This document shows, in pieces, positions 27,201-63,289 of a DNA stretch of 64,000 nt. The DNA comes from Babesia bigemina (lineage: Eukaryota). Positions within the stretch are counted from its first letter, which is position 1. Each line of letters begins with the position of its first letter. The notes beneath the pieces were generated by a model. That model saw only the letters and a list, made by a program, of their open reading frames with translations, was not told the origin of the DNA and searched no databases. Made by a program: the position numbers and the translations under genes. The stretch covers positions 1,302,001-1,366,000 of the forward strand of contig NC_027218.1 in assembly GCF_000981445.1 (NCBI RefSeq). Direction: 5' to 3'.

Positions 27201-27262
27201 AACCTCAAATTGTTGGTGGGCATATTGAAATTGCGCACTCATTAACCTCTTGCTTCTGAAGC

Positions 27263-32392: not shown

Positions 32393-33000
32393 ATCACCTC
32401 ACCACCACTCACCTAACGCACTACCTAGCAACCCACCGCCTAACCTATCACTCACCAGAATATATTAGCTAATGCCTGCTCAGCAATTTGGCAGTTAATG
32501 TAGTTCATAAATAGATGTGTTCGTGGTTTGGAATGTAGAGTTGTGAGCTACCTGTAAAGCGTGCCCACGCCCTCCCATGGTTTCAGTGGGCAGTGATGTT
32601 GGGTGATAAGCCACCAACGTACGCTGCTGAAGCGTGGTATGATATGCGAAAGTGCGTTGTATGGAGCGTGGTTTATTGGTGAGCTAGCTAACATGTTTGT
32701 TGCTACGCAATGAATGTAGCCGGAGCAGTGATGTGATGGCCAGTGGACGGCGTAGTTAGGTGGCATTAATATGAACAGCTCAAATGATAAGTATATCAAA
32801 TGCGTATTTCAGCTCACATAGGCATTCGTTAGCGCAAGAATGTAGTGGCAGATGAAGGTATCTACAAGGTGGATTGACCAGATATAGGTGGAGTTGACTG
32901 CTCAACTGGTACCCGTTCACCTGCATGCCACGGACAGGACACCAGCCACATGCGTTACTTTGGCATCGCCTTTGTTGTGATATCTTCATAGTCGTGATGT
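32393..33000 (+). repeat. Conserved ves 3' flank / Cys-rich gene upstream element, copy 1
   Basis: Aligns by eye with 54496-55090 and the reverse complement of 62690-63289 (CTAGCAACCCACCGCCTAA, GTGCCCACGCCCTCCCATGG). Confidence 0.85.
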
Positions 33001-33149
33001 GACTGACCCTGCTTTAGACGGCGGTCACCTTGCTGCTAACGTAGCGTCGGTGGGAGACCATCAGTGTCCTTGGCTGAGGTACGCGGTTCATGCCTGTGCT
33101 GGTTGATGTGACGGGCTACGCCTTGCATAGGTGCGTGTTGATGAGTGTT

Positions 33150-33432
33150 TGGTGAGTGCTTGCTTGAGTGATTGATATGTTCGCAGGTTGAGGGAACTGG
33201 GAGCGGCAGTGTACGTGTTGCAGTAGGTGAGTGCGTTGCTTGAGTGATTGACATGTCTGCAGGTTGAGGGGACTGGGAGCGGCAGTGTACGTGTTGCAGT
33301 AGGTGAGTGCGTTGCTTGAGTGATTGATATGTTCGCAGTTTGAGGGGACTGGGAGGGGGAGTGGTACGTGTTGCAGTTGGTGAGTGCGTTGCTCAGGTGA
33401 TTGATATGGTTGCAGGTTGAGTGGACTGGGAG
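33150..33432 (+). repeat. 76-77 bp tandem repeat, about 3.7 copies
   Basis: GCTTGAGTGATTGA recurs at 33162, 33238 and 33314, with a variant at 33391. Confidence 0.92.
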
Positions 33433-33444
33433 GAGAGCGGGAAG

Positions 33445-33918
33445 ATGAGCGGAAAACTATGCTCCGATTGTAGTAGAAGTTGTTATCTTCCAATTTCTTG
33501 TAATTGCTGCCCCTGGTGTTGTACAAAATGTAGTAGTAGCGACAGGTGCAGTATATGTTCGCAACTCTACCAAGTGCGCATTGGTAACAAAACATGCCAT
33601 CCTTCTGGATGTGGTGCCGGAAATTATAGATGTACTAGCACCACCTGTCAATGTAACTGTTGTCTTCAGAAACGCCGTTCCTCCGGAGACTCCTCTCACA
33701 CCAGTGCTCAGCGTTCCACGAATGACATTGCCTCCACTGGCCTCACCGTTCCCATCATCATCGTCCCCGTCCTCATCCTCGTCATTATTTTCATATTGAT
33801 TTACGTCCTGTGCCTTATGCATCGTAAACACACAGACGATGGTGCTTGCAATAAGGAGTTTGAGCACGGATGCATAACTTGCGCCTTAGGCAACGCCTAT
33901 CCCTCTACCCTAGTATAG
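33445..33918 (+). CDS. Small Cys-rich single-TM protein (ves-linked), 157 aa
   Basis: CNCCPWCCTKC...CSIC...YQVRI...CQCNCC, a Ser/Thr stalk, and TM VPIIIVPVLILVIIFILIYVL. Paralogues occur elsewhere in the window. Confidence 0.8.
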   Translation: MSGKLCSDCSRSCYLPISCNCCPWCCTKCSSSDRCSICSQLYQVRIGNKTCHPSGCGAGNYRCTSTTCQCNCCLQKRRSSGDSSHTSAQRSTNDIASTGLTVPIIIVPVLILVIIFILIYVLCLMHRKHTDDGACNKEFEHGCITCALGNAYPSTLV

Positions 33919-34491
33919 CCTCACCTAACCGGCAAGTTTTTAGTTGATGAAGATTTGATGAGATGGCGTCGTGCTGGTTGATCTATTGGGATTGGTGGCT
34001 TCATGTGAATAGAAAAGTGGAACTTGTCCGCTGATAATCCAGGCCGTCATCCGATGGGTGATAGGCCCTCTATTAGGTTAGCAAGCGGCATGTGAGTGAG
34101 ACATTGCTGTATACCGACGTGATCGGTGGCAGCGTTGTGGTGATCGGAAACAACAAAGAAGCGACTTAGGTCACTTGGCCACATATCAGAGTAACCATGG
34201 TGGAACAAAGCAGATGTTTGACAGACTTGGCGCCTTGAGTGGATAGTACATTGTTAGTTGCTCTATTGCTAAATCACAATCAAGATGTCTTATGAATGCA
34301 TGCGGGAGGGTTTGTTAATGGCGTGTCAGCGTTGTGAGGTATGGATTTACGGCTGCCCCAGCACAAGGGGGATGGCATGGTAGGGGTGGGGGGTATAGGC
34401 ATTGTGAATCGTCAGTTGGTTGAGGGTGTTTGAAAGTTAAGGTTCGTTGTTCATCGTTGCGCAGTTTAATCGTCAAGTGCTCTGAATTAAG

Positions 34492-34659
34492 ATGGCTGGT
34501 GAAGAATACTGGGGCCCAGTTATTGGTGGCCTTATTGCATTCCCTGCCCTCGTTGTCTTGGTCCTTTATATTTGCGGTAAAGTCCATAACATGAGTCTTG
34601 GTGAGACCTTCGGCCGACTGCGTGACGCATTCCGTGATTCAAAGCCTTCACTCCAGTAA
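34492..34659 (+). CDS. 55-aa single-TM microprotein (below the ORF-track cutoff)
   Basis: MAGEEYWGPVIGGLIAFPALVVLVLYICGKVHNMSLGETFGRLRDAFRDSKPSLQ. The tail is identical to that of 60265-60483. Confidence 0.75.
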   Translation: MAGEEYWGPVIGGLIAFPALVVLVLYICGKVHNMSLGETFGRLRDAFRDSKPSLQ

Positions 34660-35028
34660 TACCATGGCCTTAGTCAGGTCAGATAGCGACCTTGTTGACA
34701 TGTAACATCTGGTGTCAATCTGATGACTTCCAATATCTAACATGATCGTAATGCATGTGGTCACTTGCAGCACGTTTAATTGAAGGTGGCCGAACAATGT
34801 AGCTATCGCAGCGTCATACATTCGTCGGACACCATGACAGTGCAGACATACTGTGCTATATCTAATCGCTACTGTAAACATTAATTTGGTCAGGTGCTAG
34901 GTCACCTCACTGCTCATGTGTTTGGTTATAAACGCAATCACTACCTTGTCTAGAACATTAGATGTCAGTTGCCAGTTAGGTGATCAGTGGGATTTTGATT
35001 ACGATGTTTGCGCTAACAATCGCTGAGT

Positions 35029-35634
35029 TTAGCTGTAAAACGCGATGCAGAACGGTACTTTGCGGACGAGGAAATCGCGGATGTTGCGGCCCACCGGGAA
35101 GCGGAAGATGCACAGGTCGAGCAGGATGATGGCGACGATTATGGCAACGATGACGGCGGCGATGGCTTGGGGAGAGGTGGAGGGATCTGGGGAGACAGTG
35201 ATGGAATGACCGTCACCATCGGAACCGAGATCACCGGACCGAGCAGCGGTAACGGGGAGAACAGCGGGCTGCTGTTCACCGGTGGAAGGCAGGGAATGCT
35301 CTCGACTGCTGGAAGACTCGGAAGCAGAGGCAGAGGAAGGCTGTAGAGGGGGGAGGACGGGGTTTTTACAGCTGTCAGGCTGCTCTGTACATTTCTTAAC
35401 ACAACAGTCACATTTGCAGTCTTTCTCCTTGCCTTCACATTGTTTCTTACATCTCGAAAGTTCGCATTCGTACTTTTTACCTCTGTTTTTGATGCGCACC
35501 ATGTAATGTGCCTTACATCCATTGCAACCGCTGCTACTCTTACATTTTTCACAACACCAGGTACAACAGTAACACCCGATACCCATTCGACATCCCATAC
35601 CACATATACACTTCATCCAATCCATCCCCGTCAT
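35029..35634 (-). CDS. Small Cys-rich single-TM protein (ves-linked), 201 aa
   Basis: CYCCTWCCEKC...CNGC...YMVRI...CKCDCC, an S/P stalk, TM AIAAVIVAIIVAIILLDLCIF, and tail ending PFCIAFYS. Confidence 0.85.
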   Translation of the reverse strand: MTGMDWMKCICGMGCRMGIGCYCCTWCCEKCKSSSGCNGCKAHYMVRIKNRGKKYECELSRCKKQCEGKEKDCKCDCCVKKCTEQPDSCKNPVLPPLQPSSASASESSSSREHSLPSTGEQQPAVLPVTAARSGDLGSDGDGHSITVSPDPSTSPQAIAAVIVAIIVAIILLDLCIFRFPVGRNIRDFLVRKVPFCIAFYS

Positions 35635-36423
35635 CTTCCCCTCCCAGTCCCGTCAACCTGCAAACATATCAATCACTTAAGCAACGCACTCATCAACCAC
35701 TCATGAACACGCACCTCAGCAGCGACACTGGCCGTCTCCCATCTGGGCCCCAACGAACCATACAACCGCCATCCACCGCACCGCCAGTCACATCACATCT
35801 ATTCAGATATCAGAACAGAAATACAGCTAAGTCAACGCATGTTGAAAGTATCATGGACTTGGCATGCATGTCAACCGGTACCAGTGTAGCAGTCAGCTCC
35901 ATCCATCACAGACCGTACAACGTTGGCAGTGCCTAAGACTGCTGTAACATTTCTGTCATAATGGTAGTCCGTGTAAGCAACTGTACGTGATTATTACGTT
36001 TCTCATCTCTGCCGTTGCCATCAATGCTACCTAACCGCGGCGGTCACTGGTTATCATGCCACAGAGTCGGCGATGCTCATCACCTAACTCCTCATCAGAA
36101 CACTAACATGTCAGTGACCAATCTAACAGGCGACCTACAATATTACACAGTACAGCAATTGTCATCTGCCTATGTTAGTGGCCAATCAACCGGCTTCACA
36201 TAGCACTGGCTATGTAGGATGGCCTAGGCATGTCTCACAGATAACTCACAACTAAACAACCCAAACTGAATCATCTATTAAGTGTTATACATAAGCCAGG
36301 TTATGCCTGTAATTAGCCACCTTTTTCACACCACGGTGCCGTAGATGCTGCGGTAGCACAACTCTTCACTACTACTCCCCACCCCATTGTTATCTAAAAA
36401 TGACTACGTTAATGCGATAATTA

Positions 36424-38095
36424 CTATTTTAAGTTGAGTAGCTCGTCGGGATCGTCTTCGAAGTAATCGACGTCTTTGTATAGTGATAGCATTTTTCTGC
36501 TCGGTATGAGTAGCGCCTTAACATCGATGATGTGCGACGCCTTGGTGCGTATAAGGTGTGATCGGATGTAGAGGACGTCCATGCGGTAGAGGAAAGTGTG
36601 GAGTATGTACAGCGCCACAAGAGACCACAGTGCAATGAGAAAGTAGAGGAACGGCATCCGGATGTGCCATGTGATTTGGTCGATTTGCCGGAACAACTCG
36701 GTGAAGTGGTCGGATTGCAGCGCCTTTTTGAGTTGGGCGTTGAGGTCTCCGCAGCGAATGGCACGATTATCGGTGACCAAGAGATTTGCGTTGCGATACG
36801 TGAATCCGTAGCGGTAGAGTGTAGGCAGCAGTCCGGCGCACTGGACGGTGGACAGGCAGTGACAAGTGTCCTTCCCACCGTGGGTTCCGGGTTGGCAAGG
36901 GCATGTGGCGCAGCCGGAGGCCGTGCAGTCGATGTTGCCCAGCGCGTGGAGTACGTTGTAGAGCAACTCCCAGAACTGCCATGCCAGGTGTAGTATCCAC
37001 GTGATGTATAGCCCGGCGTGCTTCTGCGGGTAGGTGTGGCGGGCGTGGAGTCCTAGGGGTTGGAGGTAAGGAGCGCATCCACGGGGTGACTTGCAAGTGG
37101 AGTCGTTGAAGAGGCTCGAAAGAGCACCGTGACTTTCGTGGTCATGACCGGCGAGCGACACAATGGCACTGGTGAGTTTCGGATTCTGGTAGCTGCCGTG
37201 GAGCTGTGTCCACAGTGGGAAGAGGCCGTCGATGCCGTCGCTGTTGAGATGCGATATGAGATCGGAGGCATCGGTGTACGTGCCGCCACGGTGCTTAAGA
37301 TGGTCATGACTGTCCCACTTCCGTAGCAGCTGAGCATACAATGCAAACACGTCGGCGAGTGAAGAGGGTGCAGCGGGACATAGAAAAAACAGGGTCCGAT
37401 AGAGCACGAACAGGCATGAGTCGGCGTCACGGCACATATCTCCGAGGCGCCTGGCGAGATCCCAGCCGGTGCCACTTATGGAGGCAGCAAATCCAAGGTC
37501 CCAGAAGCCGAGCGGAGTGAGACACTGCTGGCCGAGTTGGTTGGAGGTGCAGTTGGCACATTCTATGACCATGTCAGCAATGGTGAGGGTATGCGGCAGT
37601 AGTCCATTGCATCGGTCGGAGAGGAACGACTGGAGAGGCGATGTAGGAGGGCAGCCGTGACTGGTGGTAGAGGAAGTGGTTGTTGTAGTTGCACCACTAG
37701 TGGTAGTAGTGGACTCCGTGTCAAATATATGACACTGCCAGTGGTGTGACTGCACCTGCCGGCCGTACGCGCACTCCCGCCACCCCTTGACCCGGGCGGT
37801 GCTGCGGCAGCACTGGGAGTACAGGAAGTAGAGCACTTTACAAAGGCGGCACACCATCTCGCATAGCATATCAAGCAGTGCGTCAGGGTCAGCTGGGTAG
37901 CGGAGCCTGGCGCGGTTGTTGGAGAAGTCCACCGAATACGGATAGGCGGCCAGGTCGAAGCCGTGGCCGTTGCCCTGGATGGCGGTTAGTAGGGCGGTGG
38001 AATGTGAACATGTTTCCCTTATGGTGAACGGCAAGCCTTCAATGCACTTAGCCATGATCGCATCCTCCTTGTTGGGGATATCGCCGTCGTGGCAT
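36424..38095 (-). CDS. 5'-truncated ves-family gene (C-terminal VESA domain, TM and tail), open reading frame
   Basis: AIQGNGHG, GWRECAYG, SPLQSFLSD, CLTPLGF, CAPYL, LPTLYRYGF, TM, and tail MDVLYIRSHL...YKDVDYF. The N-terminal VESA region is absent. The frame stays open to 38220 through antisense sequence. Confidence 0.75.
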
Positions 38096-38299
38096 CTGCG
38101 GTCTCTCGCATTCCTCATCTTCGTTAACACGATGCTATACCGCTTGGATGTGCTGCGCATACGATCACACTTTATACGCTCCAAGGCTTCACACCGCATC
38201 GACGTCATGGCCTTACTCACTAAAGGCCGGAAGATGCTTTCACTTTACAAGGACGTCGGCTACTTCGACGAAGACCCTATTGGTGGAATCGGAATCTAA
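38096..38299 (+). pseudogene. 3' terminal fragment of a paralogous ves-family gene in opposite orientation
   Basis: LRSLAFLIFVNTMLYRLDVLRIRSHFIRSKASHRIDVMALLTKGRKMLSLYKDVGYFDEDP parallels the C-terminus of the 36424 gene. Confidence 0.85.
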
Positions 38300-47979: not shown

Positions 47980-48600
47980 CTGCCCCTTACTGCTATTCAC
48001 TCATACCATCGCCTTTCATCTAGATATATCTTGACTGTGCTTCACAGTTACATCAGTAATCCTTCAAATTGAGGTCACATCCTCATCCATCACGCATCGA
48101 GGATTCCACTAGTTGTGAGAGGTGCGGAGGGGTGAAACGCCATTGCCCTTTCCGCATCACGATTGCAGCATGCTTGTATTCGTGTAGTCGCCACCCAGTT
48201 AGTCGAGTCACATTTAGGAAGACCGTTTTAGTATTATGTTAAAACCGTGCAGTGGCAGTGGGGCAGACCAGTTATTGCAAAGGAGTGGGAGAGAAACAGA
48301 TGCGAATATTAATGAACCGTCCTATAGGTTTCAACTATTGCAATGAGCCTTTGAACATTGGAATGTATGTTGGTGGTCTGACGTCACCTCCGAAGTGGAT
48401 TGTAATTTCAAGCTGTCTGGGTGCTGGCGGTTGTAATGAGGTGAGCTAGGCGGATGCTAGTTTTGTAGTGAATTTCAAATGCGCCCTCATAACTGTAGTC
48501 GTTTAAGTAATGTAGTCTAGAGTACTGAGGGGAGAGTTTGTCGGCCGTCCAGTGCTTATCGCAGTTTTGCGGCAGGGTAGAGGATCTGCAACATCGAAGT
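47980..48600 (+). promoter_or_regulatory. Conserved ves upstream region, copy 2
   Basis: Collinear similarity to 26590-27200 at the same distance from the ves ATG. Confidence 0.75.
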
Positions 48601-48651
48601 GGTATTGGGTTCCGTGAAGTCGTGTATATGGTAGTCCCATGAAATTTAAGG

Positions 48652-51600
48652 ATGGCACCGCAATTTAAGAAGCTCACTGACTGCCCGGAAAACCTCCGTG
48701 AGTCCATCGACTGGCTCATACAGGTGAGGCATGGGAATGGTATGGATGGTATTGGTGAGTTGGCCAAAGCTTTGCAAAAGCTGATTGGGGAGGCTATTGA
48801 AAAAGCGTATACTACTAATATTGATGCGCTTCTTAAGCTTCTTGATTCTGCCAAGTCTTACAACTGTTGCAAGGATAAAGTGGCTGAAATTGGGAAACTT
48901 AAGGACTCCGAAAAAATTGAAGATGAGAGTTTAAAGAAACTCTTACAGTGTGTTGAAGATCATAAAACGTCCTGTTACAATCACCTGGACCATTCCCAGC
49001 AGAAATCATACGATGAGATTGAGTCCAAGTTGGATCAACTTAAAAATCATAAAGAGAGTCTTGAAGGATTGACGGATGAAAGTCAATGTAAAGTGTTACT
49101 TACTAATTTATGTGATGGCCTCGAGACCTTCCTAGGTTACGACTCAAAATCCAAAGGCTACACTGGCCAGGGGATTGTGTACTCCGACCTTGACAGGCTG
49201 TGTGACGGGGTGATGGGATTTTTGCTTGGTGTGCTTAAAGAGGTACATGAAAATAACAACTTATCACCTTATAAAACAACATTAAATGAAGCAGTAACTA
49301 AATTAAAAGAACAGCGATATAATGGTAAAAAAGGTTTGGTGGCTGTGATTGACCCGGTCAAGCAGGGGATTGCGGGGTGGTTGGGGGAGGTGGAAAAAAG
49401 AAATAATGATGTAACGAAATATATCAATTTTTTACAAAATGACGCAATTAACGCTGCTACTGGTATCGAAAAATGGAAAAATCAAGCATTTGATGAAGCC
49501 TCCAAAAAACATGGTGAGTTGCACAATTGGATCAAATCCATCAAGGCGCTATCCAACCAACCGTATTATGCCATTCATGCGCTCGAATACGTCGATAAAA
49601 ATCTCAAAAACGATTTACTTCCGCATATCACTTTACTTAATAACGCCATTGATACTTTCAAGCAGAATACGGTTGAAGATTATAATGGACTCAACGCGGT
49701 GGCAAGCGATGCAAAATTTCAAATTAATGCTCTTGAAAACATGGTTAAACAAGTTGCTGTAGAACAGCAGCAGATTTGTAGGAAGAAGCTGGAAGATGCG
49801 TTTCTCGAAAAAATTCAGTCGCCGATTGAAAAACTGAATGAGAAGCTGAAGGGTCTTAATGGTGAATTAAAGACGTGGATAGATAAGGCCCATTTGTTAG
49901 TGAGCAAAGCAACCGCACAATGTGAAAGGATAGTAAGGGAGGTTCAAGATCAAGGCCATGGAAAACAAAAATCCGCGAATCGTACAGCCGTGGAGACAGC
50001 GGCGGAAACATTAAGGGACAGAGCGAATGTGCTCTACAAGGCGGCGAATAACGTAACGAAAAACATTGACAGCTGGGTTAGGGCGGCACAGAGCCAATTG
50101 CAGCAGTTGGAAGATGCTGTAATGTGGGATTTAAATGGCGTTAAAGATAACCTGTTGGCAGGGTTTGGGAAGTATTTGACGGGTTACGTTGGCAAAATTC
50201 AACAGGAGGTAAAGAAGATTACGGACTATAAGACAGGTTTACAAAAAATCGAACATGCGGTGAAGGCCTATGCTACGGACTTCAAGAGTGAAGAGGGTTT
50301 TGGGACAAAAGTGAAGATGTGGGTTGAGGAGATTATTGAAGACAGTGCTTACGTCAAGGAGAAGCTTAAGGCTTATGCTGGCAGTAAGGTCCATCAAGGT
50401 AGGTTCAGGCAGCCACAATATACAGCGTCGCAGCCAGATATAGCAATTTCCAAGTTTTACCAGGATATTGCAGAGGTTTTCAAGACCATGCTAAGAGCAG
50501 AAATCCGTGATGCAGCTTTAATGGTACAACAGATGATCGACTCTGATGGCGGACCTGCAGAAAAAATCGAAGATAATATCGTAGCTATTCATACTGGTTG
50601 TGAGCAATTCGCAAGTGGCATTGAAGCAGCCATTGAAAAGAAAGCATCTGGTATTATGAATCCAATGTCTGCAGGTTTTTATACGTTTGCTAAGGATATA
50701 GCTAGGGAAATTGAGAAAGTTGTTTTGGAAAACCCTGCACGACCTGATTCTCTACAACTTGAAGATTCTCTTGAAAACGCAGTCCGCTATACTCTTGCCA
50801 AACTCATTGCCTCTGCTAGGCAAAAAGCTGCTGACCTTGGATGGCTCACCGGCGAGGACAACAACCAAGCCAACATCGGTAAAGTGGACGTCTCTCTCGA
50901 TGTGGCTACAAAGCTTAATGAGGCTCTCAGAACGGCGACTGATCCCGATTCCTCAACTGGCAAATCCTACGTCGAGGATAAAAAGGCTCTCGCCGATTAC
51001 TCTGTAATCCAGGACATATCTCAGGAGCTGGAAAGAGAGTTACCATTAGCAATTGTAGATGGCAGTTCTACGAATAAAGTCCAATTAACTAAGTTTACAT
51101 CGTCGTTCACCAATGCTCGGCCTGATGGCGCCAACGAAACCAAGAAAAAATTACTCACAGAGAAAATCAAAGAAATAGAAACAAAGGTGCTACAGAAGCA
51201 ACATTTGGGGCAAGTTATGAGCACCACGACTAACGGTGCTACGGATGATAAATTCTACAGTGATACCTTCCAAAAATTGTGCGAAGTCGTAGAAAATAAA
51301 CTAAAAACTCTGTGCAAAGCTGTTGCCGATTTGGTTACGAATAAGGGAGATGAGAACACTATCACTCCAGATGACAAACGTGGCCTACAAAACCTCATGG
51401 CTGACATGAAATCCATGCTTGATGAGAAATATTTAGATGGTAAATTTTATAAACTTCCAAACAGACTCAGACAGATACAGAAACGTCTCAACGGCATAAT
51501 AGGCACCGAGGATGATTATGATAACAGTGAAACCCTTGTCGGCATACTCGATGCCTGTGGGAAATTTTGCGGCCAAACGATCAATGAGATAGTGAAAGAT

Positions 51601-54495
51601 AGCATCACCCAAATCAAGACTACCGTGAAAGTAGAAGTCGCGTCCAAAATCGCGAGCATCCAAAGATCGGCTCTCGCCAATTTCGCAAAGTCCAAGGAGG
51701 CCGAGCTTCACAATCTGCAAGAGCTGATCAAGGATAAAAATAGGGTGATTGCAAAAATAATTAGAGACGATTTGGAAAGCGAATTGAAGGGTATGATGAA
51801 GAAAATGAATGCGCAAAAAGGTACGCTTGATACAATCCACGGTCTTGCAACACCTTCGCCAGGTACACCTGTTAAGGACAACGCTCAAAAATTCCGACAA
51901 ATCTCAACTAATTTCAAATCGTATTACAATACAATTCACGAGCATATTGAAGACCAACTTATCCCAAAGCCGAAGTCCAGTCCACCCCCACCTCCCATTT
52001 CCGGTGGCGGTTACAGAGCACGTCCGGCAGCACCTATCCCTCAACCTAAAGGGAATCCACCAGGCCGAGTCGGAATGTCTGCCAAAACTGCGCCAACAGG
52101 CCAGCAGCCTCCACAAACCACCAAGAATCTCATTGCAGAATACATTGAGAGACTTAAAGTGCATTCCGACAGACTTTTCGGCACGCTCTCCGCTGGTTAC
52201 TTTAGTAGATCCTTCGCAACAAAACTGGAAAATCTAAAAGAGTTCCTCAGCTCCATGCGCTTTTCAAATTTTGCAGGTATTGGCAGTCCATTATTCGACA
52301 TCCTTAGGTTTGGCATTCAGTCTCTCACAACCGAACTTGGGAAGGCGTATATATCGGTGTGTGATACTCAGGCGTACAATTTCCAATGGAATGTTGATAA
52401 AAATTCGGAGAACTGCGCCAAGGTTTTCGTTACCATACTCGGAATGATTTTCGAAGATTTGAGTACGTTAAAAACAGAATGTGACAGACGTTTCTCCATA
52501 AGTACAATAAGCCTATCTTCGGATCTTGGAGGTTTGTTTAAGCGCTACGGTTACGTCGTAGCCAAGGACTCCAAATCACAAGACGGTGAGCTGAGGCGTA
52601 GTGACGAGATGAATGGTACGGCAGTTCGAGGGAGAATCGTCGGCGATTATCCACGTGTTTTTAATTCCTCTGCTGATACTAGACATGCCATCAACAGTCT
52701 CTTCGATTGCTTAGAAACGTATAATCAGGTATGTCACCTGTCCACTTTCTATGCATGGAGGCAGCCATGCTCCGTGTACGAGATGCTTGTTTGGTTGGCC
52801 GGTTTGCCTTACAACAACGTATATGCCGTGTTACTATCTGACGGTTTAACTAACGTTCTGACGAAGCCGAAGAGGAAACCGATAGAGACGGGTGAGGATG
52901 ACTTCGAAGTGGAGTTCGACGACCTGAAAGCCTACTACGCCGATACCTATCCTAATCGGGTAACACATGGCGACATTATTGCAGCGTTGGGCCATGTCTG
53001 CTCAACGTCATATGACGTGTTGGCCACTATTGCTGGTCACGGTGACGAATTCACAACGTACGCAGCTGACTTCTGTACGAACTCACTTAATCTAAAATAC
53101 CCTGCGTCAGGGGAGGAATGCTTGCATAACATCGTTGATATCCTACGTAGAATGTTACCGCAGCTCCAATATCTGTTCAGCCGATGCAAACTAAGTGCTA
53201 TGCACGGTGGATGGTCGCAATGCCTTTACGGCAAGGACGTCACGACAACCAAATGGCCATGTAACAACCACTCATCCGACAAACCTAGCACTAAAGCAAA
53301 TTGCCAACCAACGTCGCCACTAATGAGCTACATAACTGACTCACTTCCCGGTCACCAGCCTCACCAATTGAGTTCCATTGGATGCAAGTATGACTGCGCC
53401 AACTGTCCGTCCGTGTCCAGAAAAGGTATGCCTTGCCTAACTCCACTTGGATTCAGAGGTTTCTCTGGGTCCACGCGCAAAGGTGAGGATATATGTGAAA
53501 TTTTGGAAAAACTCTTCTCAAACTTCTATTTGTCGTCTCTATTCTGTATAGTTCCCAAAACGCCGGCATCATTGCCCGAACACTACGGTTTCGTATTATC
53601 GTTGGTTGAGGGTTGGCACAGTACCAAAACGTCACGCAAAGGCCTCATTATGGAGTCCATTGAAACATCAATCGGGAAACAATCGATTGGACTATATGAC
53701 GACACGAGCAAGCTGACAAATGCGCTTGCAAATGCGTATGGAAGCAGCCAGACTATTCATCAAGATAAAAACCACCTAGGTCCACTTGTTGACTTGTCAA
53801 GTCTGTCGATGAATACCGTATGCCAGAAGAAAGATGCGAAACTTCAATGCGCACCTTACCTTACATCACTGTGCGTAGATGCGTATATTTACTCAACCCA
53901 AAAGCAATCCAACACCTACCTGTCCTGGGCCATCTACCTCCCATGGACATTCTGGGATCTGCTCAACAATCTCTACAACGCTTTCTGCTCAATTAACTGC
54001 CAGGACTGGGCATGTCGTGAATGTCTTCGTGGTGATAAGTGCAAAAAGGGAGGGCATGGTGTTGTTGATGAAGATAAGCCAAATAACAAATGCCAATGCC
54101 CTTCCATCGTCGACTGCAAAGGCGTCGCACCAACGCTCTACCAGTATGGTTTCGTCTTTGGTGAAGCGTCGACGCTGAATGACAAGGCATCGCCGAAGAC
54201 GTGTTCCGATTTCTGTAGCCAGTTGAAGAATGTTCTCAATTCAGAATATTTCAAGAAGCTGTTCAGAGAATGTGACAACTTCCTATATTATATCCGGTTC
54301 CCCTTCATGACATTAACCCTCGCCCTCTGGCTCCTCTCCTTGTTGTACCTTTTCCACATCATGATCATCCGCCTCGACCTGCTCCACATCAAATCGCATC
54401 TTCACTCACCCTCATCACACCGCATCACCGCTCAATCACTACTCGCAGCCGCACGTGTCGGCAAACTTGCCAAGCTCACCTACCTGCAACCTTGA
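48652..54495 (+). CDS. ves1: Variant erythrocyte surface antigen (VESA1-like), 1947 aa, intronless
   Basis: MAPQFKKLTDCPENLRESIDWL, GYTGQGIVYSDLDRLCD, PCSVYEMLVWLAGLPY, PCLTPLGFRGF, TM, and tail HIKSHLHSPSSHRITAQSLLAAARVGKLAKLTYLQP. Confidence 0.92.
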   Translation: MAPQFKKLTDCPENLRESIDWLIQVRHGNGMDGIGELAKALQKLIGEAIEKAYTTNIDALLKLLDSAKSYNCCKDKVAEIGKLKDSEKIEDESLKKLLQCVEDHKTSCYNHLDHSQQKSYDEIESKLDQLKNHKESLEGLTDESQCKVLLTNLCDGLETFLGYDSKSKGYTGQGIVYSDLDRLCDGVMGFLLGVLKEVHENNNLSPYKTTLNEAVTKLKEQRYNGKKGLVAVIDPVKQGIAGWLGEVEKRNNDVTKYINFLQNDAINAATGIEKWKNQAFDEASKKHGELHNWIKSIKALSNQPYYAIHALEYVDKNLKNDLLPHITLLNNAIDTFKQNTVEDYNGLNAVASDAKFQINALENMVKQVAVEQQQICRKKLEDAFLEKIQSPIEKLNEKLKGLNGELKTWIDKAHLLVSKATAQCERIVREVQDQGHGKQKSANRTAVETAAETLRDRANVLYKAANNVTKNIDSWVRAAQSQLQQLEDAVMWDLNGVKDNLLAGFGKYLTGYVGKIQQEVKKITDYKTGLQKIEHAVKAYATDFKSEEGFGTKVKMWVEEIIEDSAYVKEKLKAYAGSKVHQGRFRQPQYTASQPDIAISKFYQDIAEVFKTMLRAEIRDAALMVQQMIDSDGGPAEKIEDNIVAIHTGCEQFASGIEAAIEKKASGIMNPMSAGFYTFAKDIAREIEKVVLENPARPDSLQLEDSLENAVRYTLAKLIASARQKAADLGWLTGEDNNQANIGKVDVSLDVATKLNEALRTATDPDSSTGKSYVEDKKALADYSVIQDISQELERELPLAIVDGSSTNKVQLTKFTSSFTNARPDGANETKKKLLTEKIKEIETKVLQKQHLGQVMSTTTNGATDDKFYSDTFQKLCEVVENKLKTLCKAVADLVTNKGDENTITPDDKRGLQNLMADMKSMLDEKYLDGKFYKLPNRLRQIQKRLNGIIGTEDDYDNSETLVGILDACGKFCGQTINEIVKDSITQIKTTVKVEVASKIASIQRSALANFAKSKEAELHNLQELIKDKNRVIAKIIRDDLESELKGMMKKMNAQKGTLDTIHGLATPSPGTPVKDNAQKFRQISTNFKSYYNTIHEHIEDQLIPKPKSSPPPPPISGGGYRARPAAPIPQPKGNPPGRVGMSAKTAPTGQQPPQTTKNLIAEYIERLKVHSDRLFGTLSAGYFSRSFATKLENLKEFLSSMRFSNFAGIGSPLFDILRFGIQSLTTELGKAYISVCDTQAYNFQWNVDKNSENCAKVFVTILGMIFEDLSTLKTECDRRFSISTISLSSDLGGLFKRYGYVVAKDSKSQDGELRRSDEMNGTAVRGRIVGDYPRVFNSSADTRHAINSLFDCLETYNQVCHLSTFYAWRQPCSVYEMLVWLAGLPYNNVYAVLLSDGLTNVLTKPKRKPIETGEDDFEVEFDDLKAYYADTYPNRVTHGDIIAALGHVCSTSYDVLATIAGHGDEFTTYAADFCTNSLNLKYPASGEECLHNIVDILRRMLPQLQYLFSRCKLSAMHGGWSQCLYGKDVTTTKWPCNNHSSDKPSTKANCQPTSPLMSYITDSLPGHQPHQLSSIGCKYDCANCPSVSRKGMPCLTPLGFRGFSGSTRKGEDICEILEKLFSNFYLSSLFCIVPKTPASLPEHYGFVLSLVEGWHSTKTSRKGLIMESIETSIGKQSIGLYDDTSKLTNALANAYGSSQTIHQDKNHLGPLVDLSSLSMNTVCQKKDAKLQCAPYLTSLCVDAYIYSTQKQSNTYLSWAIYLPWTFWDLLNNLYNAFCSINCQDWACRECLRGDKCKKGGHGVVDEDKPNNKCQCPSIVDCKGVAPTLYQYGFVFGEASTLNDKASPKTCSDFCSQLKNVLNSEYFKKLFRECDNFLYYIRFPFMTLTLALWLLSLLYLFHIMIIRLDLLHIKSHLHSPSSHRITAQSLLAAARVGKLAKLTYLQP

Positions 54496-55090
54496 TAGGC
54501 CATCTCACCACCACCCACCTAACCCACTACTTAGCAACCCACCGCCTAATCAAACACTCACCCAAATATATTACCTAATACCTAGTCAGCAATTGGTAGC
54601 CAGTGTACTTCATGTATTGATAGGTTCGTGGTTTGGGATGTAGAGTTGTAAGCTACGGGTGAAATGTGCCCACGCCCTCCCATGGCATTAGTGGGCAGCG
54701 ATGTTGGGTGATGGGCCACTAATGGAGGCTGCTGAAGAGTGTTGTGATATGTGAAAGTGCGTCGTATGTAACGTGATTCTTTGGCGTGATAGCCATTATG
54801 TGCGTCGCTAGGCAATGAACGTTGCCGGGGCTCTCCTACGTGATGGCCAATGGAAGGCGTGGTTAGGTGGAATTTATGGGAACAGCGTAAATGAGAAGCA
54901 TGTTAACTTAGGAATATAGCTCATACGGGCACTCATTATAGGACAAAAGTAACACCAGTCATATGCACTGGTAACGTGCAGTATGTGACGGATGGAGTTG
55001 ACTGCGCAACCGGTACCGGTTAATCTGCATGCCACGGCCAGGATGGTATCAACATGCTTTATCTTGGTTGTACTTCAGTTGTGATAGCTC
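54496..55090 (+). repeat. Conserved ves 3' flank element, copy 2
   Basis: Similar to 32393-33000. Confidence 0.85.
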
Positions 55091-55242
55091 CATATGAGTT
55101 ATTTAACCGGCGGTGCGCTGGATGGCGATCATCCGGTTGGCCGTGTATCACTGATGGGATACGGCATAGTGGTGTCACCTGTGGGTGCCTAGGCTACGCA
55201 TTGTATGCCCTTGCAGGCTTATCGTGGTGGATATGTAAAAAG

Positions 55243-55623
55243 ATGGTGGTGCAGGAGTGCCCTTGTGGCAATGGTTGTGATACATCTACTTGTAAGTGCT
55301 GTATCGTGTGTTGTGATAGATGTAATGGTGACAGTACTTGCTCACAATGTTTGGGGAGGATACGTGAGTCCATGGTGAGTTTGCCATGTAGGCCTGAGTA
55401 CTGTCAGAAAGCATGTAAGAAAAAAGATGGACGTTGCCACTGTGGTTGTTGTGAAAACGATGATACACACGTTGCCGCAGGTGTCACCGTTCCCGTAATC
55501 ATTGCCATAATCTTCATCTTCATCCTCCTGTTCGATTTATGCATCTTTCGCATTCGAGCCTTCCAATACGTCCGCGAATATATCGTAAGCAAATTACCGT
55601 TTTGTATCGCATTTTACAATTAA
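55243..55623 (+). CDS. Small Cys-rich single-TM protein (ves-linked), 126 aa
   Basis: 18 Cys in the first 70 aa (CKCCIVCCDRC...CHCGCC), TM VPVIIAIIFIFILLFDLCIF, and tail PFCIAFYN shared with the 35029 gene. Confidence 0.82.
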   Translation: MVVQECPCGNGCDTSTCKCCIVCCDRCNGDSTCSQCLGRIRESMVSLPCRPEYCQKACKKKDGRCHCGCCENDDTHVAAGVTVPVIIAIIFIFILLFDLCIFRIRAFQYVREYIVSKLPFCIAFYN

Positions 55624-57950: not shown

Positions 57951-59499
57951 CCTCTCCCGACCTCATTCACACGCCACCTACGGCAACTGACAATATGTTT
58001 CACCGCTCTGCCATATTTGAAGAAGCACTGTAATACATAGCTTACGTCCTCACATGCGTGGCGCCGTGCATCCAGCTGCGCATGCAGACTTGGACCGCAA
58101 ACTCAGAGCACTGACACCATGGGCACCCATATCCACGACATGCATTGACAAGGCAATTCGCCCAGATGATGACATCGGCATTATAATCAACATTCGGTTG
58201 TTCAATAACGTATACGCTAACTCATTCAGCTCACCTCATGTCACCGTACCACTGCCTCCGCTGTGGTACTACCATGGTAGAATGTGGCAACGCATCGATC
58301 CCGACAAGAGGATGGATCCTTGAGTTGCCTATATTATTGACATATGACTAACGCAATCCTTGTTCCACAACTGTTGTTAATAAAATGTTTCGTAGCGATC
58401 AACATTTTGTTATGATGCGCAACGTTTTTACGTGTCAACTCAACATCCCCTCCGAATGATGGCACGTCAGACCCGCGCTGCTGTCAGTGATTACATAAAA
58501 CGGATGATCGCAATTGTCCACAATGGGTAATCCATACTCATCAGTTGGCCCACCTTCAGTCACCTGCTCAATAGTAACCCTTCGTCTCTCAACGGTGCGT
58601 TACCAGGGAGCACTCACGATAAGATACAATAAGCGTGGCAACAACGTTCTGTGTTCTAGTGCCGTGAACCGATTATTAACTGGATCGACGACTACCCTAC
58701 CAAAGTAATCTTTTACAACATTTGCTGATGCTAACAACGCTCCCTCGCCCTCCACTCATCATCTGATTTACGGTGATCGCAACGAATATCATTTTGGATT
58801 GGAAGGCGATATAATGTGGACAAGTTGTAAGCAAAAACTGTGAATCTCTGTAACAAGGAACCAGTAAAATAGTGGTGGGTGATGCTTTACATAGTTATGC
58901 CTAATCTACTATTGGTAGCCAAAGCATTGGACGCTCTTGTGGATGAAACGTTTCGAGGACTCAGCTACCTCCTACCCATGGAAACAGCACTAGATATTGC
59001 CCGTCGAATGCTACAGTAAAGAAGATCATCACTCTACAAACTACTGTATCAACACGTGCGCCTTTGGTTACGGCAACGCTCTCCTTTAACACTTCTCGCA
59101 TCATTCACCTTTTAAAGCTCGTGTGACTCAGAGAATGGAATACGTTAGGCGATACGATTTTAAGTTTTGCATAACATATCAGAACAACAAATATACGGTA
59201 GACAAGTAACTGTTATGCAACGACCGGAAAAGAGACGGGTGCACCTATGCCTGCCCACTGTGCCAAGGATAGTCAGCGCGGCATTACAACTAACAACTTC
59301 GGTACTGCTGCTTTATGACTATCCAACGCAATCACGCTCCATCTGCCAGATATATAATTGCAGTAATCAGGGCATACATCCACCAACTGCTACCACCTCC
59401 AGGGAAGGTCGGTCATTGCTTGGCGGTACGGAATTGCGTGAGCATAGTAGAATGGCAAGTTGTACATGATGTAAGCAGGCATATAAATATAAGGTCACA

Positions 59500-59700
59500 T
59501 GTAAAAAGCTTAGTGGCCGTCCTATCTATTGTACTCATTGCGCTCCTCGTCATCATTTTCATATTGCTTGATGGCTTGTGGTCTGTGCATCGTAAATACA
59601 CATGGTGAATGGTGCTTCCCATAGGGGTAGTTGTAAAACTTATGCGAAACCTGCGCTTTATGCACTGTCCATCCCTCTACTCTACTATAGCCTCAACTAA
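59500..59700 (+). pseudogene. Relic of the TM/tail part of the 33445-type Cys-rich gene
   Basis: LLVIIFILLDGLWSVHRKYTW* versus ILVIIFILIYVLCLMHRKHT. DNA similarity continues past a premature stop, and there is no Cys-rich N-terminus. Confidence 0.6.
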
Positions 59701-60560
59701 CCAGCAAGTTGTTAGGTAATGGAGATTCGATGACAGTATCTCACTAGCTGATATGTTTGACTCGATGATCTCATCTCAAGAGAAAAGTGGAACTTATGTG
59801 GTGGTAATCCAGTCCGTCACCTGATAAGCGATAGGCCATCTGTTAGGTTAGCAAGTGGCATGTGGTTGACGTGGCGCTGCATACTGGCGTGCTTGGTGAC
59901 AGCATTGTGCCAATCAGAAACAACAAACTAGGATTTCAGGGGAGCTGGTCACTGAACGGAATAACCAGGGTAGAACAAAGCGGATGATAGACAGACTTGG
60001 CGCTTCTTGTGGATACCGCATTGTTAGTTGCTGTATTGTTAAATCACGGTAAAGACATGTCTTATTAGTGCATGTGGGAGGGCATATTTGTGTCATGGCA
60101 GCGTTGGGAGATCCGGACTCACGGTTGCCCCAGCACAAGGTGAATGGCATGGTAGGGGTTGGAGGATGCTCATTGTATACCTTCAGTTGGTTGAGGGTGT
60201 TAGAGTATTGAGGTACGTGATTAATAGCTGTGCAGAGTTTATTGCCAATTAGACTGCAAGAAAGATGGGTAATTGCGTCGGTTGTAGTAAAAGTAGGCAA
60301 GAGGCTCATGACGGCACGTGCAAGGCCATTGCTTTTGGCTACATCTTTGGAGGCACTATTCTAATGCTCGGCATTCTTCTATTGACACTATACATCTGCG
60401 GAAAAGTCCATAACATGAGTCTTGGTGAGACGTTCGGCCGACTGCGAGACGCATTCCGTGATTCCAAGCCTTCACTCAATTAATCCCCTAGCCTCATCCA
60501 GTCCACATATTCTCACTGTTGCCATGTCACATCCGATCTCAATTTTATGACTTTAACTGA
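59520..60560 (+). repeat. Segmental duplicate of 33760-34740
   Basis: Shared blocks TATAGCCTCA.CTAACC.GCAAGTT, GAAAAGTGGAACTT, TTAGGTTAGCAAG.GGCATGTG, GACAGACTTGGCGC and the microprotein tail. Confidence 0.85.
60265..60483 (+). CDS. 72-aa single-TM microprotein
   Basis: MGNCVGC N-terminus, TM AIAFGYIFGGTILMLGILLLTLYIC, and a tail identical to the 34492 ORF. Confidence 0.75.
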   Translation: MGNCVGCSKSRQEAHDGTCKAIAFGYIFGGTILMLGILLLTLYICGKVHNMSLGETFGRLRDAFRDSKPSLN

Positions 60561-60740
60561 TGCATAGTATGGCTATTATAAATTTTCTGCTGACGGCACG
60601 CTAGGTAACCAGTGGTGGTACTAGGCTGTTATAGCAGTTTCATAGTTTCTACGGCTATCATGACACTGAGTACCATGCCTTAATACATTTAATCAATACT
60701 GTACCACAAAGTATCACATTACCGCTCATAGCTACAATTA

Positions 60741-61460
60741 CTATTTCGTGTCGACTAGCGAATCATGCTGCTCACCTCCGCAGCTGGGAGTGAGGATGGA
60801 AGAAAGGGTGTCGCCAGTTTGTTGACTACTCGGTAAATCTCTGTCCCTGAATCCCATCCTGACCCTGCTCTTGTGGCACAGGTTGCACGGGTCGAAGAGG
60901 TGAGTGTCGAAGTCGGAGTCCCAGCCGTCGGTCAGGAACGCCTGGAGGGGGGAGTTGGGAGAAATTAGGTCACTACCGTACTTATAATCCTTCCAACCAC
61001 CACTTAGTTTGTCCCTATTACACTGCGACTTCAGGAACTCCAACTGGTGGTGGCAGGCGTACACGTAGTCACGCAGCTGGCAGAGGAGGGCGCAGCAATC
61101 AGGCTCCTCGGATTGGTCAGATGACTTAGGCTTCACAAATCTTGATGACACGTTCGCTTTCCATTTAGGTGCGATGGAACTGAGCACTGAACCTGCAAAC
61201 ATGGCGGTAAGCTGGAGTATGTCAAAGACATCTTTGGGCCTGATTTTGGTGTGGTTGATGAATATTGCAAGTTGTGAAGGTTCATGATGTAAGCCACCAA
61301 ATGCCTTGTTGATACATTGTTTCAGAGTCTCATGATGCTTTTCGTGCTTAAGTCCAGCTATCCACTGAAGCATCTCCCGGACGGTGCGCGGGGCCTCGGC
61401 GGGGAACAGCTCGGTCTCGGGGATATCGGTGGAGTCATGCGCGGGTTTTGAGGTAGCCCA
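60741..61460 (-). pseudogene. Internal ves-family fragment, truncated at both ends
   Basis: FPAEAPRTVREMLQWIAGL, CALLCQLRDYVYACHHQLEFLKSQC, GGW.DY.YG and SPLQAFLTD. No N-terminal region, TM or tail. Confidence 0.75.
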
Positions 61461-61847
61461 GGGAGCAAGGCCTAATTCAATGTCCGGTTGTTTGATAGTC
61501 TTTTGGTCAAAGTCTTCGGTAATTGAATGAGGAGCAGCGTCAAACGGTTCTATGTTGAGATCGATGGCGGAAGTGGGCGGGCTTATTACGTCGAGTGGCT
61601 GGACGCTTGGGTGGTGGATGATCGTATCCCATGTCTATGTCAGACATTAAATAATGTATTAAGTTCTGCATTTAATCAGTCACTAACGCAGCCACTTGGT
61701 CACTCAATATGTCATGTACTAGGTCAGTTGCTTGCTCACCACTTTGGTCAGGTGGTTGATCACCTCACTGCTCATGTGATTTATAATCAATGCAATCATT
61801 ACTTTGTCTAGCACATTAGATGTCAGTCGCCATTCAGGTGATTGTGA

Positions 61848-62291
61848 TTAGCTGCGCAGTAGATACCGCACCCTGTGGAACGGCCGGATGCGGAAGTAGA
61901 TCATGGCGCAGATGACGACGATGATGAGGGCGACGGCGGCGATGATGTAAGGGGCGGGGTTGGAAGCGGTGGTAGACTGTCGACCGGTTTGGTGCTCTAC
62001 AAGGGGGGGAGTGGCGGGACCGGAGGCAGAGACGCCAGTGGAGGAAGTGGAGCGATGCTGGGCATAGCTTACGGAAAAGCGTGCACTTCTACGACAGAAA
62101 CATGGACAGTTGGTGTCACAACCAAGACACCCCGATTCATGGCATTCTTGTATTCCTACGCGTCCAAAGTAGATATCGCGACATTCAGGACAAGATGGAC
62201 AACGTTTGCAAAACACGCGGCAGCATCTACAAATAGGCTTCGTACATTTAATAGTACATTTACACTGCGTCATTGTTCCTCCTCTCGACAT
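61848..62291 (-). CDS. Small Cys-rich single-TM protein (ves-linked), 147 aa
   Basis: CRCCRVFCKRCPSCPEC...YFGRV...CPCFC, an S/T/P stalk, TM YIIAAVALIIVVICAMIYF, and a basic tail. Confidence 0.82.
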   Translation of the reverse strand: MSRGGTMTQCKCTIKCTKPICRCCRVFCKRCPSCPECRDIYFGRVGIQECHESGCLGCDTNCPCFCRRSARFSVSYAQHRSTSSTGVSASGPATPPLVEHQTGRQSTTASNPAPYIIAAVALIIVVICAMIYFRIRPFHRVRYLLRS

Positions 62292-62301
62292 CTTCACCTT
62301 C

Positions 62302-62592
62302 CGCTCCCAGTCTCTCAACCTGCAAACATATCAATCACTCAAGCAGCACTCACCAACTGCAACACTACCACTGCCGCTACCACTCCCCTCAACCTGCGAA
62401 CATGTCAATCACCTATGCAGCACTCACCAACTGCAACACTACCACTGCCGCTACCACTCCCCTCAACCTGCGAACATATCAATCACTTAAGCATACACTC
62501 ACCAACTGCAACACGTACCACTGCCGCTCCCAGTCCCCTCAACCTGCAACCATATCAATCACTTAAGCATACACTCACCAACTGCAACACGA
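62302..62592 (-). repeat. 74-76 bp tandem repeat, about 4 copies (reverse complement of the 33150 repeat)
   Basis: CTCAACCTGC recurs at 62314, 62388, 62462 and 62538. Confidence 0.92.
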
Positions 62593-62689
62593 ACACGCAC
62601 CTCAGCAGCGACACTGACCGTATCACATCGGCGTCACGGTAGTAGCCAGATGAACGCCATCCAAATCACAGCCGATTACATCACTACTA

Positions 62690-63289
62690 TGCAGCTATCA
62701 TAGCTGAATTAGCGCCCAGTCAAGGCATGTGAACGGTATCCTCGCCGTGGCATGCAGGTCAACCAGTGCCAGTGGAGCAGTCATTCTCAATCATCAATGA
62801 CAGTACAAAGTTGCCATTGCCTATGACTGCTTTTACATTTGTGTTATAATATGTACCTCAATGAGTTACACTGCGTTATTAATAAGTTTGTCATTCACCC
62901 TGTTACCACCAATTACACTTAACCATGCCGTACCCGGGCCATCACGTCGCGTAACCACGGCTACATTCATTGCCTAGCAACAAACATGTTAACCATCTCA
63001 CCATACAATCACGTTGCATACGACGCACTTTCAGTTATCACAGCACGCTTCAGCAGCCTACATTGGTGGCTCATCACCCGGCATCACTGCCCACTATAAC
63101 CATGGGAGGGCGTGGGCACATTTCACCCGTAGCTGGCAGCTCTACATCCCAAACCACAAACCTTTAAATGCATGAACTACATTAACTGCCAGTTGATGAG
63201 TAGGCATTAGGTAATATACTTGGGTGAGTATCAGGTTAGGCGGTGGGTTGCTAGGTAGTGGGTTAGGTGAGCGGTGGTGAGGTGGTCTA
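62690..63289 (-). repeat. Conserved ves 3' flank element, copy 3
   Basis: Reverse complement of the 32393-33000 blocks (CCATGGGAGGGCGTGGGCAC, TTAGGCGGTGGGTTGCTAG). Confidence 0.85.

What the first reader, a model, noticed from the sequence alone, without database searches (positions are those of the whole stretch)
32393..63289. Recurrent cassette: each ves gene is followed by a small variant Cys-rich membrane protein gene
Seen: four ves 3' ends (32392+, 36424-, 54495+, 63290-) are each followed on the same strand, 1053, 790, 748 and 999 bp later, by an ORF of 126-201 aa. Each has CxCCxx(C/F)CxxC..CxxC..CxCxC(C), a variable S/T/P stalk, one TM, a short tail and no signal peptide. Cys positions are kept while intervening residues vary. 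The topology mirrors VESA (no signal peptide, C-terminal TM). Known: B. bovis ves genes are accompanied by signal-peptide SmORFs, and its VESA1 has a Cys/Lys-rich domain. These ORFs do not look like SmORFs. Inference: a possibly undescribed ves-linked multigene family of variant mini-antigens or VESA partner subunits, perhaps a split-off Cys/Lys-rich domain, co-duplicated and co-regulated with ves.
Basis: partly seen in the sequence, partly recalled or inferred. Interest (0 to 1): 0.88.

Follow-up and report, generated by a model that had tools for sequence, protein, structure and literature searches.

The report
Cys-rich mini-antigen genes trailing Babesia ves
In the cattle parasite Babesia bigemina, dozens of small, cysteine-rich, highly variable membrane-protein genes sit close to the main surface-antigen (ves1) genes, here at a fixed distance behind them, and likely encode a second, apparently unnamed set of variant proteins on infected red cells.

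Summary
Four ves 3' ends are followed at the stated distances by ORFs of 157, 201, 126 and 147 aa with a Cys-rich domain, one TM and a short tail. The family is larger than the window: 46 annotated proteins match, the 45 named ones all B. bigemina 'hypothetical'. In 18 intact members 18 Cys columns are conserved; among 12 with the main tail type the residues between Cys are 22% identical and TM+tail 96%. Genome-wide, 22 of 34 placeable members neighbour a published ves1 gene, against 1.7 expected. The spacer is a conserved module: 685-709 nt from ves stop to a predicted first intron, TGCATGC 154-157 nt before it, then one to four predicted leader introns. 'Each ves' is overstated, and the family shows no similarity to B. 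bigemina/B. ovata VESA. Expression, localisation and VESA binding are unshown; 0 of 34 members appear in a shallow published proteome. Best reading: a ves-linked accessory variant membrane protein using VESA's signal-peptide-free route. My seven paper searches found no paper naming it. New variant of a known kind.

The parts
27263..32392 (+). ves1b-type gene, intact ORF of 1709 aa (cassette A)
   Evidence: C-terminus of the HIKSH...YLQP type shared with a protein labelled BbigVes1b
32393..33444 (+). Conserved spacer A: ves 3' flank, TGCATGC at 32922, first predicted donor 33079, 76-nt intron/mini-exon repeat x3.7 at 33151-33432
   Evidence: splicing predicted from sequence only
33445..33918 (+). 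Family gene A, 157 aa, 18 Cys before the TM, tail type T3 (MHRKH...)
35029..35634 (-). Family gene B, 201 aa (P0001), 20 Cys before the TM, long stalk, tail type T1 (DLCIFR...CIAFYS)
35635..36423 (-). Conserved spacer B: TGCATGC at 35862-35868, one predicted 57-nt intron 35714-35658; first ~200 nt differ from A, C, D
36424..38103 (-). 5'-truncated ves fragment with a ves1a-type 3' end (within a 594-aa ORF, 36424-38208)
   Evidence: 82% identity to residues 480-1039 of P0053, whose interpolated accession is labelled ves1ba
48652..54495 (+). ves1b-type gene, intact ORF of 1947 aa (cassette C)
54496..55242 (+). Conserved spacer C: TGCATGC at 55026, one predicted 36-nt intron 55181-55216
55243..55623 (+). 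Family gene C, 126 aa, 18 Cys, minimal stalk, T1-like tail (upstream in-frame ATG at 55054 would give 189 aa)
59465..59608 (+). Remnant of a T3-type TM/tail without a Cys domain; starts a block homologous to the DNA behind gene A
   Evidence: tblastn E 1.9e-5; blastn 33776-34464 vs 59544-60235, 75% (sequence)
61848..62291 (-). Family gene D, 147 aa, 16 Cys, tail type T2 (YFRIRPFHRVRYLLRS)
62292..63289 (-). Conserved spacer D: TGCATGC at 62750-62756, first predicted donor 62600, 74-nt intron/mini-exon repeat x3.7 at 62314-62590
63290..64000 (-). 3' end of a ves1b-type gene running off the window (cassette D)

Best explanation
These ORFs are a B. bigemina multigene family carried as a fixed module behind ves1 3' ends, and they likely encode small accessory variant proteins that are predicted to sit in the infected red-cell membrane with a hypervariable, likely disulfide-bonded Cys domain outside and a conserved anchor and tail inside. 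Shown: the family, the Cys framework, the variable/conserved split, the linkage to ves1 and the conserved spacer. Inferred steps: (1) the spacer holds the ves 3' end and then the small gene's own promoter around TGCATGC; (2) a non-coding leader with one to four short introns is spliced, removing every upstream ATG in the repeats; (3) the protein is inserted by its single TM without a signal peptide, as reported for VESA1, and exported; (4) the nearly invariant TM/tail engages one conserved trafficking or anchoring partner while the Cys domain varies under antibody pressure; (5) a copy is switched on when the chromatin of its ves locus opens, so it varies along with ves.
For: 46 proteins at E<=0.01, 45 named, all B. 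bigemina hypothetical. 18 columns >=90% Cys in 18 intact members; identity in 12 T1 members 22% between Cys, 30% stalk, 96% TM+tail. Coding constraint: TGT/TGC exchange at 7 of 18 Cys columns; B vs C TM+tail pS 0.63, pN 0.27 over 44 codons. Linkage: 22 of 34 next to a labelled ves1 gene (1.73 expected, 0 of 10000 shuffles); 4 of 10 for those with directly read accessions, which I picked because they had no known ves neighbour (0.39 expected, 2 of 10000). Spacer 65-78% identical over 633-680 aligned nt, ves stop to first donor 686/709/685/689 nt, TGCATGC 154-157 nt before it; it follows both ves1a-type and ves1b-type 3' ends. No in-frame upstream ATG in 315, 3 and 128 splice combinations for A, B, D. 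Positive charge after the TM in 18 of 18. VESA1 has no signal peptide, one C-terminal TM and reaches the red-cell surface (PMC6630957, PMC9477259 passages).
Against: No expression shown: 0 of 34 tagged members in the published proteome sheet read in full (it covers 8.2% of the proteome, another strain, searched against gene models that are often wrong for this family). Topology is not shown: a TM 14-35 aa from the C-terminus also fits a tail-anchored protein with a cytosolic Cys domain. 9 of 34 members have no labelled ves within two genes, and only 26 of 115 labelled ves have a listed member adjacent. Of 10 members beside a large gene of known strand, 6 lie on its 3' side and 4 on its 5' side; the members' own strands are unknown. 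pN>=pS between Cys is near saturation and does not prove positive selection; B vs D TM+tail has pN 0.46 > pS 0.22 (different tail types). One cassette follows a truncated ves and one copy is a remnant.
Confidence: 0.45

Rival explanations
1. Tail-anchored metal-binding adaptor: the protein is inserted after translation with the Cys domain in the cytosol (parasite or red cell), where 16-20 Cys bind zinc; it helps traffic or regulate VESA and is not an antigen.
For: No signal peptide; TM 14-35 aa from the end; CxxC/CxC/CC spacing also occurs in metal-binding domains (own knowledge); no conserved N-glycosylation site.
Against: Positive charges lie after the TM in 18 of 18 members, which favours tail-in; 22% identity between Cys against 96% in TM+tail is the pattern of an exposed antigen, not of a hidden adaptor; a stalk spaces the domain from the membrane.
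Confidence: 0.2
2. Dedicated VESA subunit: each small protein binds the VESA1 encoded in front of it and stands in for the second chain of the B. bovis heterodimer.
For: Fixed one-to-one position behind ves; only 35% of B. bigemina ves1 genes are in a/b pairs and no VESA1a was detected in the proteome (PMC4066756).
Against: Most labelled ves have no listed member adjacent (26 of 115, lower bound); the T1-type tail follows both ves1a-type and ves1b-type ends (cassettes B and C); a member sits behind a truncated ves.
Confidence: 0.15
3. Passenger: an ordinary small gene lay in the 3' homology block that ves genes use for transposition and conversion, and was multiplied with it; its role is unrelated to ves (for example tick-stage) or most copies are decaying.
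For: ves1 genes move between loci routinely (PMC4066756 abstract and discussion); a remnant copy at 59465-59608; no peptides in the blood-stage proteome.
Against: All four window copies behind ves ends are open; Cys framework and tail are under coding constraint; the Cys domain is more diverged in protein than a neutral passenger homogenised with its flank would suggest, while spacer lengths stay fixed.
Confidence: 0.15
4. Part of ves itself: a split-off Cys/Lys-rich domain, or an alternative last exon that swaps the VESA anchor.
For: Cys/Lys-rich, variable, same strand, splice acceptors just before the ATG; B. bigemina VESA lacks the CKRD.
Against: Family Cys profile: 0 hits in 121 VESA proteins. 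In A and B the last leader exon has an in-frame TGA right after the acceptor (sequence), so no upstream exon can join in frame through it. The CKRD lies near the VESA N-terminus, not behind the gene. B. bovis VESA was not compared.
Confidence: 0.05

Closest known systems
B. bovis SmORF
   Same: Small, variable, about 44 copies, tied to ves1 clusters, function open (PMC2034396 passages).
   Different: SmORFs have a signal peptide (43 of 44) and no TM and are reported absent from B. bigemina; this family has a TM, no signal peptide, a Cys framework and a fixed position.
B. bigemina ves2
   Same: Small, multi-copy, same species, near ves1 loci.
   Different: ves2 derives from the ves1b 5' end, has a signal peptide and no TM; this family has no detectable similarity to VESA.
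VESA1 (ves1a/ves1b; B. bovis CKRD)
   Same: No signal peptide, variable N-terminal part, one C-terminal TM, short conserved tail.
   Different: Ten times smaller, unrelated TM/tail, no profile match in 121 VESA proteins.
Giardia variant-specific surface proteins (recalled)
   Same: Variable CxxC-rich ectodomain on a near-invariant TM and Cys-bearing tail.
   Different: VSPs have signal peptides, are larger, coat the parasite itself; no Pfam match here. Analogy only.
Plasmodium rif/stevor beside var; trypanosome ESAGs beside vsg (recalled)
   Same: A second, smaller gene family physically coupled to the main variant-antigen gene.
   Different: No homology (RIFIN E 0.0016 in 2 of 34 members, below cut-off where shown, TM region); here the gene lies behind the antigen gene with a predicted promoter and spliced leader of its own.

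Membership tests
SmORF | N-terminal signal peptide, no TM | tested here: not met
   Best 11-aa hydropathy in the first 35 aa <=1.33 in 18 members, TM 2.9-3.6; no spliced extension for A, B, D. No SignalP run.
SmORF | Sequence similarity to SmORF conserved blocks | not tested
   No SmORF sequence was in hand; no B. bovis protein among the hits.
SmORF | Association with ves1 loci | tested here: met
   22 of 34 adjacent, 1.73 expected.
ves2 | Homology to the 5' end of ves1b | tested here: not met
   Cys-domain profile 0 hits, TM profile best E 0.14, in 121 VESA proteins; 8 VESA queries give no tblastn hit on the ORFs.
ves2 | Signal peptide and no membrane anchor | tested here: not met
VESA1 | Conserved VESA C-terminal domain with TM | tested here: not met
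VESA1 CKRD (B. bovis) | Sequence similarity to the CKRD | not tested
   No B. bovis VESA among the 120 of 358 hits listed; the deep profile search could not be run.
VESA1-like exported antigen | Exposure on the infected red-cell surface | not testable with these tools
   Needs localisation.
6-Cys (s48/45) family | s48/45 domain and signal peptide | tested here: not met
   No such Pfam family in 34 members at E<=0.01; no signal peptide.
Any solved Cys-rich fold (metallothionein, zinc finger, knottin) | Structural match | tested here: inconclusive
   Models poor (pTM 0.29, 0.30); best Z 3.6; no Foldseek match.

The most novel reading that the evidence does not exclude
The unit of antigenic variation in B. 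bigemina is a two-gene cassette: each active ves1 allele switches on, and may pair with, its own small Cys-rich variant partner, whose dose is tuned by a variable number of ATG-bearing leader introns, replacing the a/b heterodimer logic of B. bovis.
Probability: 0.2. Interest if true: 0.85.

Novelty: new variant of a known kind. Interest (0 to 1): 0.66.

Why it matters
[quoted passage not shown] A third ves-associated family of at least 46 annotated genes plus unannotated copies changes the parts list for antigenic variation in this cattle parasite and gives direct tests: does the gene behind the active ves switch with it, and is it on the red-cell surface? The near-invariant TM/tail gives one probe for most of the family. 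It also shows why the family was easy to miss: 24 of 46 public gene models start with words translated from the leader repeats and only 15 of 46 keep the whole central Cys block.

Tried and rejected
No whole genome was held, so the linkage test used public annotation order instead of base distances. No RNA holder was listed for cassette B; no evidence either way. Complex prediction of VESA residues 1480-1947 of cassette C with protein C gave no verdict (score 0.00, alignments not used). Two AlphaFold models were poor; fold searches gave nothing. ESM Atlas: nothing at 0.9 or more for protein B or for 57084-57950. Pfam: nothing at cut-off for the four ORFs, only weak TM-region matches in 34 members. 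Metagenome contigs: 591 pattern matches, none confirmed. The deep profile search over all protein representatives never ran, so distant relatives in other Babesia species are not excluded. A first tag test with 31 confirmed ves tags was weak (5 of 34 within two, 99 of 5000 shuffles); with 46 size-inferred tags added it gave 16 of 34; it was replaced by published labels. The search of six locus tags in the B. ovata paper's supplements was uninformative because Table S2 uses accession numbers; whether the family is an undiscussed numbered cluster there is untested. The shuffled control for spacer identity was spoiled by very short alignments and is not used. Earlier findings of the scan: nothing. 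Rejected: N-terminal signal peptide through spliced leader exons; 57084-57950 as a member.
Full report
Organism and setting. The right half of the window holds two intact large ORFs (27263-32392+, 48652-54495+), a 594-aa ORF (36424-38208-) and a gene end at 63290-. A profile of their C-termini finds 358 proteins at E<=1e-10; the 120 listed are B. bigemina or B. ovata (three unnamed window proteins), among them tags labelled BbigVes1b in a published table. The organism is therefore inferred to be B. bigemina, not B. bovis. No whole genome was held.

The observation. They form two tail-to-tail pairs of cassettes (A/B, C/D). 17 Cys columns are invariant in the four. Five ORFs in the window pass a Cys-rich + TM filter and 0 of 100 Markov resamples give one. 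The fifth (57084-57950-, 288 aa, 41 Cys) got tblastn E 2.8e-7 without composition correction but scores below its own shuffles with the family profile, so it is left out. A fifth ves 3' end (37979-38299+) has no such ORF, and the ves before B is only a 3' fragment, 82% identical to residues 480-1039 of P0053.

The family. Protein B finds 36 proteins and a 20-sequence profile finds 46: one is the window's own, 45 are named, all B. bigemina hypothetical proteins; only lengths 69-352 aa were searched and the search needs shared words. Three of the four window proteins are not in the collection as exact sequences, so the family is probably larger than annotated. 37 of 46 end in tail T1, 8 in T2, 1 otherwise; copy A has T3. 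For the conservation count I kept 18 sequences with the whole Cys block (4 window, 14 annotated, three of them cut at the Met after the leader words) and left out the 31 models without it. 18 columns are >=90% Cys. In the 12 T1 members mean identity is 22% between the Cys, 30% in the stalk, 96% in TM+tail. All 18 have one TM, net positive charge after it and no hydrophobic N-terminus. Across A-D, TGT/TGC exchange at 7 of 18 Cys columns; B vs C TM+tail has pS 0.63 and pN 0.27 (44 codons, uncorrected); between the Cys pN is equal to or above pS but near saturation; B vs D tails, of different types, give pS 0.22, pN 0.46. No Pfam family, Atlas cluster or fold explains it.

Linkage beyond the window. 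Table S2 of PMC5660447 labels B. bigemina ves genes by accession; I read all 55 ves1a rows and 60 of 81 ves1b/ves1ba rows. Accessions run in gene order. Ten family accessions were read directly, chosen because they had no known ves neighbour; 24 were interpolated from locus tags (uncertain by about one; offsets partly calibrated on ves genes); 11 members on unplaced contigs and the window's own were left out. 22 of 34 are adjacent to a labelled ves (1.73 expected, 0 of 10000 shuffles), 25 of 34 within two; direct only, 4 of 10 adjacent (0.39 expected, 2 of 10000). Nine have no labelled ves within two genes; unlabelled fragments like the one before B, or the 21 unread rows, may explain some. 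Conversely 14 of 55 ves1a, 10 of 46 ves1b and 2 of 14 ves1ba have a listed member adjacent. On two unplaced contigs members lie two and three accessions from a ves. Side is only partly tested: of 10 members beside a large gene of known strand, 6 are on its 3' side and 4 on its 5' side, two of the latter with another labelled ves1b on the far side.

The spacer. The DNA between ves stop and ORF is homologous in all four: 65-78% identity over 633-680 aligned nt, and 686, 709, 685, 689 nt from stop to the first predicted splice donor; TGCATGC lies 154-157 nt before that donor in each, though it occurs only 14 times in the 64 kb. TGCATG is the Plasmodium AP2-Sp element and the AP2 domains are conserved in Babesia (PMC5104403 passage); its use here is inferred. 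Nearly all length difference comes from a 74-76 nt tandem repeat (3.7 copies in A and D) that reads as a 34-36 nt GTGAGT...GCAG intron plus a 40-41 nt exon; B has one 57-nt and C one 36-nt candidate intron. Every candidate intron holds an ATG and the repeat exons hold none; none of 315, 3 and 128 splice combinations gives an in-frame upstream start in A, B, D, while C has a non-conserved open extension from 55054. In A and B the last leader exon carries an in-frame stop. So the leader is most likely non-coding. B follows a ves1a-type end and differs only in the first ~200 nt, so the same module is attached to both ves types. Gene finders were misled by these repeats: 24 of 46 models begin with words translated from them.

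Expression. None shown. No RNA run was listed. In sheet 1 of the PMC4066756 proteome table, read by eye in full, 0 of 34 tagged members appear; the table covers 8.2% of the proteome, comes from another strain and was searched against the faulty models, so it is weak evidence against.

Mechanism. Best reading (0.45): a separately transcribed accessory variant membrane protein that follows VESA1's signal-peptide-free path (PMC6630957, PMC9477259 passages), exposes a Cys-scaffolded variable domain, keeps a conserved anchor and tail, and is likely co-activated with its ves locus. Family, framework, linkage and spacer are shown; promoter, splicing, topology, export and co-regulation are inferred. 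Rivals: cytosolic metal-binding tail-anchored adaptor (0.2), dedicated VESA subunit (0.15), passenger of ves transposition (0.15), part of ves or split CKRD (0.05; 0 hits in 121 VESA proteins; B. bovis not compared).

Literature. Seven searches found no paper that names this family; the library lacks most subscription papers. Seen: PMC4066756 abstract, passages, Results parts 1-2 of 4, Discussion, supplement 3 parts 1-7 of 11 (supplementary figures not read); PMC10463595 parts 1-2 of 5; PMC5660447 passages, section 28, searches in Table S2; passages only of PMC9806345, PMC9477259, PMC6630957, PMC10975891, PMC5104403, PMC9531838, PMC10471129, PMC2034396. These list ves1a/b/ba, ves2, mfs and 6-Cys expansions for B. 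bigemina. [quoted passage not shown] Unread supplements of the RNA-seq and single-cell papers may hold expression values for its members, and Table S2 of PMC5660447 was not searched with family accessions. Giardia VSP, rif/stevor and ESAG comparisons are recalled.

Verdict. Real, constrained, ves-linked and apparently uncharacterised; the kind (small variable family beside a major variant antigen) is known, this form is not. New variant of a known kind, interest 0.66.

Noticed in passing
window 57084-57950 (-): 288-aa ORF with 41 Cys before a single TM and a 59-aa tail, no signal peptide, no ves within 1.5 kb upstream; not in the protein collection as an exact sequence; no Pfam or Atlas match; possibly another Cys-rich membrane family.
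   Followed up: partly
window 37979-38299 (+) against 36424-38103 (-): Two ves1a-type 3' ends joined back to back at about 38103, a rearrangement junction that leaves both genes 5'-truncated.
   Followed up: partly
window 33776-34984 and 59544-61842: The DNA between the tail-to-tail small genes is itself duplicated (75-85% in three blocks), with an internal ves-like fragment (60777-61391, -) lying between blocks of the second copy; the double cassette seems to move as a unit.
   Followed up: partly
window 26741-27220 and 48131-48609: The 5' flanks of the two intact ves1b-type genes are homologous (71-86% in blocks), a candidate ves1b promoter module.
   Followed up: no
window 38465-39067 (-): 200-aa ORF just upstream of the ves junction, no Pfam match, not in the collection as an exact sequence.
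   Followed up: no
window 45659-47410 (+): Major facilitator superfamily transporter beside a ves gene (Pfam MFS_1 E 3e-19); mfs genes are an expanded family in this species.
   Followed up: no
P0035, P0036, P0040, P0050: Four public models join two tail modules (T2 then T1 or T3), so some loci carry a second TM/tail sequence behind the first; alternative 3' splicing or prediction artefact.
   Followed up: no
P0051-P0169: VESA1 proteins of B. bigemina and B. ovata carry unrelated database names (C3H1-type domain, extracellular matrix-binding ebh, ribosome-binding protein), and VESA1 has no Pfam hit at cut-off in this window.
   Followed up: no
window 25000-26000: GC drops from 0.50-0.64 in the housekeeping left part to mostly 0.40-0.51 at the edge of the ves-rich right part.
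   Followed up: no
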